From positions 38,860-102,859 of the IMG/VR virus record IMGVR_UViG_3300002220_000322: a stretch of 64,000 bases of DNA, one strand, 5' to 3'. The notes under the pieces were generated by a model that ran no database searches, was not told the origin of the DNA, and worked only from the letters and a program-made list of their open reading frames with translations. The position numbers were made by a program, and so were the translations under genes. This DNA is from a virus (lineage: Duplodnaviria > Caudoviricetes). Positions within the stretch are counted from its first letter, which is position 1; each line of letters starts with the position of its first letter. Shown piece by piece: positions 6,201 through 63,411 of this stretch.

Positions 6201-7876
6201 CTATAGAAACCAAAGGGATAGATTATTTTGAGTTAGATTTAGACGCTATAAGTCATAGACTTACTTTTAATCAAATAAGAAAAGCTCATTTAGACAACAT
6301 TCTTCCTGTTATAAATGCTTATACGTGATGGATGAAAGTACAATCTGGAAAAGCAGGGGAGGATATATCAAAAGAGCTAGAACATGTAAAAAATAGAATA
6401 AAATTAGCTGCAGCAGATGAGTCTATAATAGACCCAGAAGCAGAAGATGTAGTACAGGCAGCTACGGTTGTTAAAAAAATAACTACTGCTGGTATGTTGG
6501 CTTTTAGACCAGCTCTATTTTTAAAAGAGATGACTATAGGACTTTATAAGGGATCTATGCTAGCATTTACTAAAATATACGGAGGAGAAGAACAATTTAC
6601 TATATCAGATTTAGGAAAAGCATTAGGAAAACTAGCAACTATAGATAAAAAATTTGCTAGAGAATGAAATATGATTGATGGAATAAATAATGAATATGGT
6701 TTTGCGAATAGAGACGTAAACTCCTTAGCCCCAAGACTTCAAAGTAATAGAAGGGGTCTACATATGGGCTTAGGTCCGTGAATGTATATTATGAATACTG
6801 TTCCAGATTATTATAATAGATTAGCATTGCTTTTAGCTAAAATGATACATGATGGTTCTTATGATGCTCATGGATTAGACAAAGACGGATATTTGACTTA
6901 TGATCCTAAGAAAGATAAAAGATTTTCTTATTATTTTGAAGTTAGAGATAAGTATAAAGCTGAAGAAGGAAGTGTTGTTAAGTATAAGTCTTCTAATGCA
7001 GATAAATTATATAATAAACAAAAAAGCTTATATAATCTCCTAACAGACCAACTAAACTCTGAAAGAATAAGAATGGGATATGAAAAGTTTAGTGAAGGAG
7101 ATATTGTAGATAAAGCTTATTCTGAATTAGAAAGATCAAGTTATAAATCTTTTGTAGACGGTGTTTATGGATATTATGATGTGGATTCTCAATCTGAAAT
7201 ACATAAAACATGGTATGGAATTTTATATTTACAATTTTTACAATTCTGGCCAGGTAAAATGAATATGTGATTTGCTAGCTCTAAGAAGAAGGGAGTAACT
7301 CCTACCGGAAGATTTGAACAAATGAGTAAAGAAATTGATGGGAAAAAAGTTTTACTTTGAAGAAGAGAAGTTATAGACGAGGAAACTGGAAAAATTACTG
7401 GTTTTGAAATTACTGAAGAAGATACTGGAGACCCTGCATATGAATGAGTAGGTACACCGCAAGAAGGATTGGCTATTGCCCTAATGATGACAGCTAAAGA
7501 TATAGTCACTTTTAATTGAAGTAACATAAAATCTGATGATTTAAGAACTAGAAGAGCTTTATATGGACTTTCTGATGGCTTATTAATGCTTATATTTTTT
7601 GCTATTATTTCTAATTTATTGAAAGCATATAGAGAAGAAAATGGGGATGATGGTATAGACGGAGAAACTATAAGATTTATAGATGCTGTCAATGATAAAA
7701 TATTAAATGAAGCTAATATTTTAGATAATACTTTTGGGGCACTAAGATCTAAACCTGCTTTTTGAACTTATAGTACCAGAGTAGCTGGTAATGTAATAGA
7801 TGTAATAGAGGGAGACAGAACAGCAAAACAAGCTTTAGCTAAAAATATAAGAGCATTTGAATTTTTAGAAGAATAA
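3233..7876 (+). CDS. 1547-aa giant protein (TGA=Trp) with an internal PD-(D/E)xK nuclease-like domain
   Basis: One frame from ATG 3233 to TAA 7874 with 13 in-frame TGA and no TAA/TAG. Motif GKIDIL..HIYDIK..YQLAFY at ~3968-4100. Confidence 0.85.
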
Positions 7877-57101: not shown

Positions 57102-57303
57102 TTAATAATTTTTTAGCTTTATTTATATTACAAATTGTTTTAATAAAAATAAGATCAGATACATTAGTCCAAAAAATTTTTTTTGTTCTTCTAGTATATA
57201 ATCTGGCTTTATCTCCCTTAATTTCAGCTAACACAAATCTCATAGCCTTATGACTTTGCCAAGTGGTATGATAATTACATCCGATGATTATAGGATTATC
57301 CAT
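57091..57303 (-). CDS. hypothetical protein
   Basis: Start overlaps the rtcB stop. Confidence 0.55.
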   Translation of the reverse strand: MDNPIIIGCNYHTTWQSHKAMRFVLAEIKGDKARLYTRRTKKIFWTNVSDLIFIKTICNINKAKKLLNEK

Positions 57304-58487
57304 TAGTGGGCTTTATAATTATACAAAGGTTTAATAGTATCAATGACAATGACTGTATCTTGAATAAGAGATACAATTTCCTCCATAGACTTATAAGCTA
57401 AAGGAGCTTCATCTAAAGTACTTTCTAATACAGAAGTGCTGTAAATACCCTCCATAGAATTTTTAAATTCTTCTAAATTTAAATTTTCTCTAGCTGAAGT
57501 TCTGCTCATCAATCTTCCAGCCCCATGAGGAGCAGAATAATTCCAGTTTTTATTTCCCTTACCAATACATATAAGAGAACCATCTCTCATATTAATTGGA
57601 ATTAAAAGTAATTCTGATTCTTCGGCAGATACTGCTCCTTTTCTAAGAATCATTCTTCTAAAATCAATGTAATTATGAATAGTTTCAAATCTACTAGATT
57701 CTTCCCATTGCATCTCTTCAATAATAATTTTAGCTATAGTTTCTCTATTAAAAGAAGCAAATTTCTGAACAATAGACATATCATTCATATAATTATCAAA
57801 ATCCTTTCCTGTAAGAAAAGCAAATTCTTTATCAGTTGATGAAATTTTAATTTTCTTCAATTCATCATTAATTTCTTTTTGCCTTCCTTCAGATTTAAGT
57901 TTATCAATGAGATTTTTAATCTCCTCATTTGATTTACTAGAATTTTTAAAAGCTAAATTTTGATAATATTGACATACTTCACTTCCCAACTTTCTACTTC
58001 CAGAATGAATAATAAGAAATATATCTTCTGTAGTTTTACTTTTCCCTACTTCAATAAAATGGTTACCTCCACCTAAAGTACCTATAGAAAGAGAGGCTCT
58101 ACTTGCATTTATATGATTTGTACATTTAAGAGAGTTTAAGTCAAAAATATCTTTACTTTTAGTATGTACTTCTTTTCCACTTGGGATTTTATTATTTATA
58201 ATATTATCTAATTTAGAAAAATCTATATCTCGATTTTTTAACTTAATAGTTAACATACCACATCCTATATCTACTCCAACTAAGTTAGGAGTAACTTTAT
58301 CTTTTATAGTCATGGTAGTACCTATAACACATCCTTTGCCAGCATGAGCATCCGGCATAATTCTCACAGTAGAATTTTGATATGCTTCACAATTAATAAG
58401 TTTTTTTATTTGATTAAAAGCTTCTTCTTCAAAGGTTTTTGCAAATATAACTGTTTCTGTTCTTAAATTATTTTTTATAATCTGCAT
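57303..58487 (-). CDS. rtcB: RtcB RNA ligase
   Basis: MPDAHAG, GVDIGCG, GGGNHF, HSGSR, HN, RKGA, HGAGR and DEAP.AYK. Confidence 0.95.
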   Translation of the reverse strand: MQIIKNNLRTETVIFAKTFEEEAFNQIKKLINCEAYQNSTVRIMPDAHAGKGCVIGTTMTIKDKVTPNLVGVDIGCGMLTIKLKNRDIDFSKLDNIINNKIPSGKEVHTKSKDIFDLNSLKCTNHINASRASLSIGTLGGGNHFIEVGKSKTTEDIFLIIHSGSRKLGSEVCQYYQNLAFKNSSKSNEEIKNLIDKLKSEGRQKEINDELKKIKISSTDKEFAFLTGKDFDNYMNDMSIVQKFASFNRETIAKIIIEEMQWEESSRFETIHNYIDFRRMILRKGAVSAEESELLLIPINMRDGSLICIGKGNKNWNYSAPHGAGRLMSRTSARENLNLEEFKNSMEGIYSTSVLESTLDEAPLAYKSMEEIVSLIQDTVIVIDTIKPLYNYKAH

Positions 58488-59038: not shown

Positions 59039-59161
59039 TGAGAGAGCTTGGACTCGAACCAAGAAACCCATTAGGCAGCGGTTTTGGGAAGTAACTTATA
59101 TATAGCCCTAAGGAAAGTATAAAAGAATACACCGCCGTGTTTACCATTTCACCACCCTCTC
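59039..59161 (-). ncRNA. Leu/Ser-type tRNA scaffold whose anticodon loop is replaced by the array motif
   Basis: GAGAGGG/CTCTCTC acceptor, D arm, GCGGT/ACCGC stem, variable arm and T arm. Confidence 0.8.
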
Positions 59162-59164
59162 TTG

Positions 59165-59538
59165 ACGGAAAGTATATCACTAGTATTTTTACCATAAAAT
59201 AAGAAGTAAGTGATATATAGCCGTTTAAGTTGTATTGGAAATTATAATACTAAACGAGGAGGCAATTAAGCCAACAGAAGTAAGTATTATATAGCCAATT
59301 TAAAAGATAAGGAAATTAAATAAGAAAGATCACTCATGTAGAATGATCGGATATCAACCGATTAGAAGTATCTTATTTATAGCCTTATTATGAGATGAGG
59401 TAAATACATTACTAAAACAAATAAAAGGTTTGCTGAGAAGTAAGTAAATGTATAGCCTCATTATATTTTAAAAACCGGAAAGAATATAACTAAGAAAAGA
59501 TAATATAGTCCTTTAGAAGTAAGTTATATATAGCCGGT
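59165..59538 (-). ncRNA. five tandem structured ncRNA repeats (59165-59224, 59234-59299, 59307-59388, 59395-59461, 59474-59538)
   Basis: Conserved GG-CUA / UACUUCU / pyrimidine-rich loop-CC with covarying stems. Confidence 0.8.
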
Positions 59539-60118: not shown

Positions 60119-60192
60119 AAGGAATTTAGTTAGTGATTTTATTTCCATCACTATCTTTTACTTGTAGTTAGAAGTAACCAACTAATAGCCTT
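60119..60192 (-). ncRNA. sixth copy of the structured motif
   Basis: AAGG-CUA-UUAGUUGGU-UACUUCU...ACUAACUAA-AUU-CCUU. Confidence 0.7.
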
Positions 60193-62305: not shown

Positions 62306-62325
62306 TTTTAAAAGTTTAAAGTTTG

Positions 62326-62391
62326 TTGGAATAGAGAGGATCGAACTCTCGAAAGAAATAGCTACTTTCTAACTTGCCTATCAATATTCCA
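62326..62391 (-). ncRNA. 66-nt D-armless tRNA-like RNA
   Basis: TGGAATA/TATTCCA acceptor, AGAAA/TTTCT stem with 7-nt loop, GAGAG-TTCGATC-CTCTC T arm. Confidence 0.6.
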
Positions 62392-62806: not shown

Positions 62807-63411
62807 TGTAAACTTTGTTTAAGTTTATTGATATGATATTTAAGGTATCTTTTCTTATCATCATATAATCCTTTTTTAAACAAAATGCTTTTGTTCTTAA
62901 AAAACATTAATGTAAATACAGATTCATGATGAATAAGGTAGAACATCAGAAGAAAAGTATCTTCTTTTTTAAGGGGCAGAATATCAAGTATATCAGTTAA
63001 TCCAGGAAGTTCAGATGAATCTTCTTTAAAAAGACTAACATAATTATACAAAAGTTCCATTCCTTCAATGATAGTATATGTGTCAATCAACTTATCTAGA
63101 AATTCAATTCTAGAAGTAGTGTCTCTTATATCCCACCAATAATTATAATTTATTTTCATCAAGTAATGTTCTAAAGAAGGAAAATTGGATAACCAACTAG
63201 AGTCAATCTTGTATATAAATAAACCAATAAAGTATCTTAAATTCTTAGGACGTCTTGCTTCTAGAAACTCTTTAAAGGAAATTAAATCAAAAGGATAAAT
63301 ATGGGAAATTTTTGCAGAAATTGTACATAGTCCCATAAGATCTCCTATATTAATACTTTTGTAATATTCTTCCTTTATAGCGATTAAGATTTCTTTTTTA
63401 TTCTTTATCAT
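62803..63411 (-). CDS. hypothetical protein
   Basis: ORF. Confidence 0.55.
   Translation of the reverse strand: MIKNKKEILIAIKEEYYKSINIGDLMGLCTISAKISHIYPFDLISFKEFLEARRPKNLRYFIGLFIYKIDSSWLSNFPSLEHYLMKINYNYWWDIRDTTSRIEFLDKLIDTYTIIEGMELLYNYVSLFKEDSSELPGLTDILDILPLKKEDTFLLMFYLIHHESVFTLMFFKNKSILFKKGLYDDKKRYLKYHINKLKQSLQ

What the first reader, a model, noticed from the sequence alone, without database searches (positions are those of the whole stretch)
59039..59161. tRNA body carrying a circularly permuted copy of the array motif in place of an anticodon
Seen: intact acceptor, D, variable and T arms. The anticodon stem continues into UUUUAUA-CUUU-CC-UUAG-GG-CUA-UAUAUAAG-UUACUUC, the two motif halves in swapped order closed by a tetraloop. 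The permutation shows the motif is a structural module rather than a DNA repeat. Established: YrlA Y RNAs join a Ro-binding stem to a tRNA-like domain, with termini in the stem; here the termini are in the acceptor, so the RNA could be processed or charged like a tRNA.
Basis: partly seen in the sequence, partly recalled or inferred. Interest (0 to 1): 0.85.

Follow-up and report, generated by a model that had tools for sequence, protein, structure and literature searches.

The report
tRNA-shaped RNA carrying a protein-binding handle
A phage gene that folds like a tRNA has, where its anticodon loop should be, a rearranged copy of a small folded RNA "handle" repeated six times next door beside a large Ro60-like/TerD protein gene; it is most likely the tRNA-shaped member of an undescribed Y-RNA-like particle, not an ordinary decoding tRNA.

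Summary
Window 59039-59161 (-) is a full cloverleaf (Rfam tRNA 38.3 bits; ARAGORN only with introns allowed). A 41-nt insert (59088-59128) splits its anticodon loop.

The insert is the array motif in permuted strand order. A covariance model of the array unit finds 6 units in this phage and 237 in 102 related loci. All lie on the coding strand beside homologues of the 696-aa gene, and covariation is strong. The motif is therefore a folded RNA module, not a DNA repeat.

Two orthologues (L181, L184) keep the cloverleaf and the graft through compensatory changes: 14 of 29 pairs change on both sides. They keep no common anticodon. Relatives also carry back-to-front tRNA-like units that score below threshold on Rfam YrlA.

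My best reading (0.55) is a stable Y-RNA-like chimera bound by the helical+TerD protein. The main rival (0.25) is an intron resealed by the neighbouring RtcB, giving tRNA(CCA).

It is not a member of YrlA or Ro60: the Ro-binding motif, the Rfam threshold and the Pfam TROVE match all fail. No RNA data could be obtained.

This scan has noted the same RNA-protein pair on other DNA. I found no publication describing it.

The parts
59129..59161 (-). 5' part of the tRNA-like body: acceptor 5' strand, U8, D arm (GUG-AAAUGGUAAA-CAC), G26, anticodon-stem 5' strand GCGGU, then G32 U33
   Evidence: ARAGORN with introns allowed; Rfam tRNA 38.3 bits; compensatory changes in orthologues
59088..59128 (-). 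41-nt insert, a permuted copy of the array module: spacer AUU; inner-stem 5' strand CUUUUAUA (59118-59125); CUUU (59114-59117); CC (59112-59113); loop UUAG (59108-59111); GG (59106-59107); CUA (59103-59105); inner-stem 3' strand UAUAUAAG (59095-59102); UUACUUC (59088-59094)
   Evidence: Segments read out; the fold forms both stems; same topology conserved in L181 and L184
59039..59087 (-). 3' part of the tRNA-like body: CCAAA, anticodon-stem 3' strand ACCGC, 14-nt variable region, T arm, acceptor 3' strand, A73; no encoded CCA
59165..59224 (-). Array unit 5, ending 3 nt before the tRNA-like 5' end
   Evidence: Covariance model R1, 40.5 bits
59235..59298 (-). Array unit 4
   Evidence: R1, 32.2 bits
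59309..59386 (-). Array unit 3; its variable part holds a degenerate T-arm-like hairpin (AUCGG-UUGAUAU-CCGAU)
   Evidence: R1, 38.9 bits; sequence
59397..59459 (-). Array unit 2
   Evidence: R1, 27.6 bits
59475..59537 (-). Array unit 1
   Evidence: R1, 33.3 bits
60119..60192 (-). Solitary array unit directly after the stop codon of the 696-aa gene
   Evidence: R1, 37.5 bits
60215..62305 (-). 696-aa protein: N-terminal HEAT-like helical repeats plus a C-terminal TerD-fold domain; the presumed protein partner of the module
   Evidence: No Pfam match. AlphaFold model. TerD fold Z 12.9; Ro60 Z 6.7-6.9 over about 300 residues. BFVD match to a phage TROVE-domain protein, E 8e-4. Module RNAs flank homologues down to 24% identity, including Xanthomonas phage XacN1
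58539..58985 (-). 148-aa helical protein (phrog_2574), conserved directly after the RNA array and tRNA-like gene
   Evidence: tblastn synteny in 28 + 18 loci; no fold match above background
57303..58487 (-). RtcB RNA ligase, adjacent only in this phage
   Evidence: Pfam PF01139, E 2.9e-61; absent from the flanks of all related loci

Best explanation
The 123-nt transcript is a stable chimeric non-coding RNA. It consists of a complete tRNA cloverleaf whose anticodon stem continues into the same folded module that forms the neighbouring array RNAs.

The module has a short outer stem, a CUA/CUUU internal loop, an inner stem of about 8 bp and the single-stranded motif UUACUUC. I infer that it is the docking site for the adjacent 696-aa helical+TerD protein, in the way the conserved stem of a Y RNA docks Ro60.

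The tRNA body would then be the effector or mimic domain. It would be processed at its acceptor ends by RNase P, RNase Z and the CCA-adding enzyme, and would present a tRNA shape to tRNA-handling enzymes. In this phage that may serve tRNA repair or quality control together with RtcB.

Shown here: the cloverleaf, the permuted module, its RNA-level covariation, its strict linkage to the protein gene, conservation of the chimera in three phage lineages, and non-conservation of the anticodon. Inferred: protein binding, absence of splicing, and the biological role.
For: Cloverleaf.

The module is a real RNA structure linked to the protein gene. R1 gives 125 + 112 + 6 hits, all on the coding strand and beside the gene, none elsewhere in about 1 Mb searched on both strands. 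Covariation score is 0.777 against 0.176 in shuffles and at most 0.125 when partners are slid. G-U pairs fit only this strand.

The chimera is conserved. Orthologues L181 (62% protein identity) and L184 (58%) keep acceptor, D, anticodon and T stems and the grafted module. Cells paired are 96.5%, 14 of 29 pairs change on both sides, and all 7 acceptor pairs are compensated.

The spacers flanking the module differ in length (5/12, 12/26 and 11/22 nt). The only U33-compatible triplets would be CCA, AGG and AAA.

Class-I chimeras in other phages share one body type but carry differing triplets. The 'Ala' one has G3-C70 rather than G3.U70, and plain tRNA-Asn genes coexist with the Asn-type chimeras.

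The same composite exists with its ends in the module and a closed acceptor stem (L184 6864-6990, L184 6342-6455, L181 5788-5908). These hit Rfam YrlA at 34-38 bits. That form cannot be spliced into a tRNA.

The protein resembles Ro60/TROVE weakly in fold.
Against: Precise removal of the 41 nt restores a plausible loop (U33, CCA, A37, A38), and no other tRNA-Trp is present in the 103-kb record.

In class-I relatives C32-U33 and R37-A38 are kept around the insert, as expected for real anticodon loops.

RtcB, a tRNA-splicing ligase, is two genes away.

The Ro60 likeness is only middling (Z about 6.8; Pfam TROVE silent), and the Ro-binding motif of Y RNAs is absent.
Confidence: 0.55

Rival explanations
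1. The 41 nt are a protein-dependent tRNA intron. An unidentified endonuclease, possibly guided by the module or by its protein, cuts at 33/34 and after UUACUUC. RtcB joins the halves into a tRNA(CCA), and the excised module joins the pool of array RNAs.
For: ARAGORN restores a 5-bp stem and the 7-nt loop GU-CCA-AA. RtcB is adjacent. No other tRNA-Trp is in the record. In relatives, inserts at 28/29, 32/33 or 33/34 leave canonical arms with GUU, UUG, GUA, UCC or UUC. Unexplained tRNA introns are reported in Lak megaphages (PMC6784885).
Against: With eight possible splice registers, a loop with U33 and a purine at 37 is expected by chance in roughly two of three AU-rich flanks (my estimate). 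Orthologues L181 and L184 give only AGG or AAA. G32 is atypical. The body is type II with a Leu-like D arm and A73 (my knowledge of tRNA identity rules), which fits Trp poorly. The distance from UUACUUC to the putative 3' junction varies from 0 to 6 nt. There is no bulge-helix-bulge motif, no EndA in the record and no ribozyme family match. RtcB is not linked in any relative. The closed-acceptor permuted forms cannot be spliced into tRNAs.
Confidence: 0.25
2. It is a former tRNA gene disabled by insertion of a mobile copy of the module: a decaying by-product with no function of its own.
For: The module is repetitive and is found at several positions in different tRNA bodies. The anticodon is not conserved.
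Against: The cloverleaf and the graft are kept by compensatory substitutions across three lineages whose partner proteins are only 57-62% identical. The position, last RNA before the 148-aa gene, is conserved.
Confidence: 0.07
3. The repeats act as DNA or transcription signals (promoters, terminators or recombination sites), and the tRNA resemblance is incidental.
For: Short conserved AT-rich words recur at a period of 70-90 bp.
Against: Stem sequences vary while pairing is kept, with G-U pairs on one strand only. The same elements work in permuted order. Promoter-like sites are no more frequent than in shuffles. The tRNA model scores 38 bits.
Confidence: 0.02

Closest known systems
YrlA-type bacterial and phage Y RNAs bound by Ro60/Rsr (Rfam RF02553; Chen et al. 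2014, PMC4201824), as in the Salmonella rsr-yrlBA-rtcBA operon
   Same: A protein-docking stem is joined at the anticodon-stem position to a tRNA-like domain with T and D arms. Several such RNAs are encoded beside the protein gene. There is a link to RtcB in this phage. M. smegmatis YrlA is even opened in its acceptor stem by RNase P and receives CCA (PMC4201824). Relatives' units hit the YrlA model at E 3e-05 to 4e-07.
   Different: The docking module has another sequence and shape: a CUA/AUUU loop plus UUACUUCUA, with no GNCGAAN0-1G motif. Scores are far below the Rfam threshold of 69 bits. The partner protein has no Pfam TROVE or vWA match and carries a TerD domain. In the window's RNA the ends lie in the acceptor stem and the module is closed by a tetraloop. 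Arrays reach 6-10 units.
Protein-spliced tRNA introns of archaea and eukaryotes (bulge-helix-bulge motif, EndA endonuclease, RtcB ligase), including the box C/D RNA-bearing intron of archaeal tRNA-Trp
   Same: A short structured insert sits in the anticodon arm at variable positions. An RtcB gene is nearby. The insert is itself a functional-looking small RNA.
   Different: There is no bulge-helix-bulge motif and no EndA, the host is a bacteriophage, the anticodon is not conserved among orthologues, and closed-acceptor permuted forms exist.
'Enigmatic' tRNA introns of Lak megaphages (Devoto et al. 2019, PMC6784885)
   Same: Phage tRNA genes are interrupted by short conserved inserts of unknown mechanism.
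   Different: That paper reports no module family, array or partner protein. I did not compare the sequences.
Circularly permuted structured RNA genes (two-piece tmRNA; permuted tRNA genes of Cyanidioschyzon merolae) - from my own knowledge
   Same: The same fold is encoded with different strand connectivity.
   Different: Here the permutation concerns a composite of tRNA plus docking module, and both forms occur within one phage gene cluster.

Membership tests
tRNA (Rfam RF00005) | Cloverleaf with acceptor, D and T arms scoring above the family threshold | tested here: met
   38.3 bits against 29, model positions 1-71; ARAGORN with introns allowed; compensatory changes
tRNA (Rfam RF00005) | Contiguous 7-nt anticodon loop with an anticodon conserved among orthologues | tested here: not met
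   48 nt lie between the stem strands. Possible triplets are CCA, AGG and AAA in the three orthologues
tRNA (Rfam RF00005) | CCA addition and aminoacylation | not testable with these tools
YrlA / Y RNA (Rfam RF02553) | Score at or above the Rfam gathering threshold (69 bits) | tested here: not met
   No YrlA match in the window at E up to 10; relatives' units score 34-38 bits
YrlA / Y RNA (Rfam RF02553) | Conserved Ro60-binding motif GNCGAAN0-1G in the terminal stem (PMC4201824) | tested here: not met
   The module reads GG-CUA-stem-UUACUUCUA; no CGAA word is present
YrlA / Y RNA (Rfam RF02553) | tRNA-like domain joined to the protein-binding stem at the anticodon-stem position | tested here: met
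   for the window; for the permuted relatives
YrlA / Y RNA (Rfam RF02553) | Encoded beside a Ro60 orthologue (TROVE + vWA) | tested here: inconclusive
   Pfam TROVE and vWA are silent. Fold matches to Ro60: Z 6.9, rmsd 5.4, 297 aligned; and Z 6.7, rmsd 5.6, 305 aligned. Match to a phage TROVE-domain protein, E 8e-4. The C-terminal domain is TerD, not vWA
TerD domain | TerD beta-sandwich fold | tested here: met
   2qz7_B: Z 12.9, rmsd 3.1, 151 aligned, residues 479-643. Pfam PF02342 is not matched by sequence
Bulge-helix-bulge tRNA intron (EndA/RtcB pathway) | Two 3-nt bulges flanking a 4-bp helix at the splice sites | tested here: not met
   The predicted fold has a 3-bp helix, an 8-nt bulge and a 2x1 loop; junction distances vary among relatives
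Bulge-helix-bulge tRNA intron (EndA/RtcB pathway) | Splicing endonuclease gene (PF01974) | tested here: inconclusive
   None in the 103-kb record, which is only 59% complete
Bulge-helix-bulge tRNA intron (EndA/RtcB pathway) | RtcB ligase linked to the intron-bearing gene | tested here: inconclusive
   Adjacent in the window but in none of 102 related loci within 3.5-6 kb
Group I intron / small self-cleaving ribozymes | Match to any Rfam intron or ribozyme model | tested here: not met
   No such match at E up to 10; 41 nt is too short for a group I core

The most novel reading that the evidence does not exclude
The module is an excisable handle. A phage ribonucleoprotein, or a host nuclease it recruits, cuts at the base of the module and RtcB reseals the ends. 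One gene would then yield both a tRNA and a Y-like RNA. This would be a bacteriophage tRNA-splicing route independent of EndA and of group I ribozymes. It could time or protect phage tRNA supply, since the insert sits at 33/34, which I recall as the site cut by PrrC-type anticodon nucleases. This phage is also said by an earlier, unchecked note to recode TGA as Trp.
Probability: 0.15. Interest if true: 0.92.

Novelty: new variant of a known kind. Interest (0 to 1): 0.74.

Why it matters
If the reading is right, many large phages, including crAss-like gut phages and the cultured Xanthomonas phage XacN1, carry a ribonucleoprotein built on the Ro60/Y-RNA principle but from parts listed in neither Rfam nor Pfam.

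The tRNA-bodied member is the informative piece. The same composite of tRNA plus handle occurs with its ends either in the handle or in the acceptor stem. That shows the handle is a portable structural unit and that the tRNA shape itself is selected, independently of decoding.

It also gives a concrete, testable explanation for some 'enigmatic' interrupted phage tRNA genes. It links tRNA mimicry to phage-host conflicts over tRNA cleavage and repair.

The alternative, a new splicing route, would matter even more. One RT-PCR would separate the two readings.

Tried and rejected
- Pattern scan of viral contigs with GGCTATA-N6-TTACTTC gave only single, scattered matches that look like chance.
- A single-protein locus search found nothing; the alignment-based search worked.
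- blastn of the locus against cultured phages gave no match.
- Pfam on the 696-, 131-, 148-, 202- and 105-aa proteins gave nothing useful. The profile search against PDB sequences was empty. The ESM Atlas returned only unnamed or TerD/Prok-RING clusters.
- The fold of the 148-aa protein has no match above background.
- EndA was not found.
- Single-sequence minimum-energy folds of relatives' inserts mostly do not show the module fold, so I relied on covariation.
- I first read L181 as a third strand topology, with the inner-stem partner only downstream. The three-way alignment shows an upstream partner in the same topology as the window, so I withdrew that reading. L181 and L210 merely have an extra downstream complementary segment.
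- I first took the conserved Asn-type anticodon hairpin as evidence for decoding. I dropped this after finding a His-like anticodon hairpin inside a closed-acceptor unit (L184 6864-6990).
- Literature searches for phage tRNA introns, RtcB, TROVE and TerD found no description of this system.

Full report
**What is at the coordinates.** All genes around the finding lie on the minus strand. The minus strand of 59039-59161 has a 7-bp acceptor stem, U8, a 3-bp D stem with A14 and G18G19, a 5-bp anticodon stem, a 14-nt variable region, a canonical T arm and A73. Default ARAGORN and the whole-window Rfam scan miss it. The Rfam tRNA model, run on the short stretch, scores 38.3 bits (threshold 29, E 3.8e-07) over model positions 1-71, with 48 nt in place of the loop.

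**The array motif is a folded RNA module.** Five units at 59165-59537 and one at 60119-60192 share one plan. It runs: a 4-bp outer stem ending in GG, CUA, an 8-9-bp inner stem, UUACUUCUA, a variable part, the complementary inner strand, a 4-nt pyrimidine-rich loop (AUUU or CUUU), and CC closing the outer stem.

I built a covariance model (R1) from eight units of distant loci. It finds all six window units and nothing else in the 103-kb record. It finds 125 hits in the window plus 51 viral-contig loci and 112 hits in 51 metagenome loci. Every hit lies on the strand of the 696-aa gene homologue and directly beside it. On the 125-hit alignment, 93.3% of pair cells are standard pairs against 59.0% in shuffles. 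There are 415 cells with changes on both sides, against 115 in shuffles. The covariation score is 0.777, against 0.176 in shuffles and at most 0.125 with slid partners. That alignment was fitted to the model, which favours pairing. However, all four Watson-Crick types occur at most positions, and the G-U pairs fit only this strand.

**The insert is the module in permuted order.** In array units the outer stem is open and the inner stem is closed by the variable part. In the tRNA the outer stem (CC/GG) is closed by UUAG, and the inner stem opens towards the anticodon stem.

**The chimera is conserved, the anticodon is not.** The metagenome scan gave closer relatives. L181 (62% protein identity) and L184 (58%) carry, at the same place (last RNA before the 148-aa gene), the same type-II body with its invariant D arm, and the module is grafted the same way. 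On the three-way alignment, 96.5% of cells pair and 14 of 29 pairs change on both sides. All seven acceptor pairs are compensated. The slid controls reach at most 0.195 against 0.713. The tRNA fold and the graft are therefore under selection.

The spacers between anticodon stem and module are not conserved. Their lengths are 5/12, 12/26 and 11/22 nt. The 5' spacers of L181 and L184 begin AAAA. The only registers giving U33 yield AGG and AAA, against CCA here. Triplets with A34 are unlikely decoders (my knowledge of bacterial tRNAs).

**Other phages.** Class-I tRNA bodies of one common type carry the module at 28/29, 32/33 or 33/34. They have GUU (five phages), UUG, GAA, UGC, GUA, AAA, UCC or UUC. 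Near-identical bodies carry different triplets: L129 has UUG and L127 has GAA; L149 has GUA and L187 has AAA. The 'Ala' one has G3-C70 instead of the universal G3.U70. Plain tRNA-Asn genes coexist with the Asn-type chimeras. On the other hand, C32-U33 and R37-A38 are usually retained around the insert, which keeps the intron reading alive.

**Both permutations of the composite exist.** In L184 6864-6990 an array-type unit encloses, in order: a His-like anticodon hairpin, a variable stretch, a T arm, an acceptor stem closed by a loop, and a D arm. That is a tRNA opened at 28/29, the very position of the Asn-type insert. L184 6342-6455 and L181 5788-5908 are similar. They hit Rfam YrlA over its whole length at 38.4 and 37.5 bits, with E down to 3.9e-07 on the short stretch but far below the 69-bit threshold. 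Such closed-acceptor forms cannot be spliced into tRNAs. The composite itself therefore looks like the functional form. Other units bracket whole tRNAs (L146 8799-8941, L184 7006-7129).

**The protein.** The 696-aa product belongs to a large, well conserved family with no Pfam match. The model (mean pLDDT 74) shows HEAT-like repeats followed by a TerD fold (Z 12.9, rmsd 3.1, 151 aligned). Two solved Ro60 proteins align over about 300 residues at middling Z: 9l5y_B at Z 6.9, rmsd 5.4; 2nvo_A at Z 6.7, rmsd 5.6. In BFVD it matches full-length phage proteins and a 'TROVE domain-containing protein' of a crAss-like phage (E 8e-4, 403 columns). I treat the Ro60 likeness as a lead only.

The RNA-gene linkage is stronger evidence. 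Homologues of only 24-28% identity, in cultured Xanthomonas phage XacN1 and in a faecal scaffold, each have three R1 hits just upstream. A 148-aa helical protein follows the RNA cluster in 46 loci and has no fold match. RtcB is adjacent only in this phage.

**Weighing the readings.** For a stable Y-RNA-like chimera: conservation of body and graft without an anticodon, the closed-acceptor permuted forms, the shared module with its strict protein linkage, and the absence of any cleavage machinery or ribozyme signature. For an intron: the restored GU-CCA-AA loop, the lack of another tRNA-Trp in the record, RtcB next door, and the retained loop flanks in class-I relatives. I put the chimera at 0.55, the intron at 0.25, a decaying tRNA at 0.07 and a DNA signal at 0.02. 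The rest is unassigned.

**Comparison with what is known, and novelty.** The element works like YrlA but fails YrlA's defining tests: the Rfam threshold, the GNCGAAN0-1G motif (PMC4201824) and a Pfam-recognisable Ro60 neighbour. It also fails the bulge-helix-bulge test for protein-spliced introns. Lak megaphage tRNA introns (PMC6784885) are the only published phage parallel I found, and they come without a mechanism. Searches of the paper library found no description of this module or protein. Earlier notes of this scan reach similar readings on other genomes and on this locus. They are unchecked AI notes and I do not count them as evidence.

**Limits.** There are no transcript, binding or charging data. 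The genome record is 59% complete. The Ro60 relation is unproven.

Noticed in passing
L184:6864-6990, L184:6342-6455, L181:5788-5908: Array units whose variable part is a circularly permuted tRNA-like domain (T arm, closed acceptor stem, D arm). They hit Rfam YrlA below threshold, at 34-38 bits against 69. One keeps a His-like CUGUGGA loop.
   Followed up: partly
L146:8799-8941 and L184:7006-7129: Array-type modules whose two halves bracket a whole tRNA. The L184 tRNA, at 7032-7106, scores 51.3 bits on Rfam tRNA.
   Followed up: partly
L179:3470-3845 (Xanthomonas phage XacN1, AP018399.1, gap before ORF396): Three unannotated module RNAs (variant UUCCUUCUA) in a cultured jumbo phage, directly upstream of the 696-aa homologue. 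This is a tractable experimental system.
   Followed up: partly
L126:1423-1564, L172:8228-8373, L149:5239-5369: A second, unrelated class of 47-58-nt inserts in phage tRNA anticodon loops. Two of them share AGUACCC...GGGGAAACU.GGUGGACA.ACUA. No Rfam match was seen.
   Followed up: no
window 62325-62391 (-): A 67-nt 'tRNA-Ala(agc)' called by ARAGORN only and not by Rfam, directly upstream of the 696-aa gene start. It is possibly another tRNA-like RNA lacking a normal D arm.
   Followed up: no
window 62991-63074 (+): An ARAGORN 'tRNA-Stop(tta)' lying antisense inside the 202-aa ORF, unsupported by Rfam. It is probably a false call.
   Followed up: no
whole record G000 (103 kb): Earlier notes say TGA is read as Trp in late genes, yet ARAGORN finds no tRNA(UCA) in the record. 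The only Trp-type candidate is the interrupted CCA one. The suppressor may lie in the missing 41% of the genome.
   Followed up: partly
L122:10275-10673; L128:12512-12921; L132:11262-11476: A GOLLD RNA (315.7 bits), tmRNAs and a group I intron lie within a few kb of the cassette in lake jumbo phages.
   Followed up: no
L126:5813-5885, L127:1238-1310, L128:3015-3087, L132:5825-5899, L147:5303-5377: Amber-suppressor-type tRNA(CUA) genes just upstream of the 696-aa homologue, which suggests TAG recoding in those phages.
   Followed up: no
L181:6340-6375 and L210:6893-6925: The 3' strand of the module's inner stem has a second complementary partner downstream as well as the usual upstream one. This may be an alternative pairing or a duplication remnant.
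   Followed up: partly
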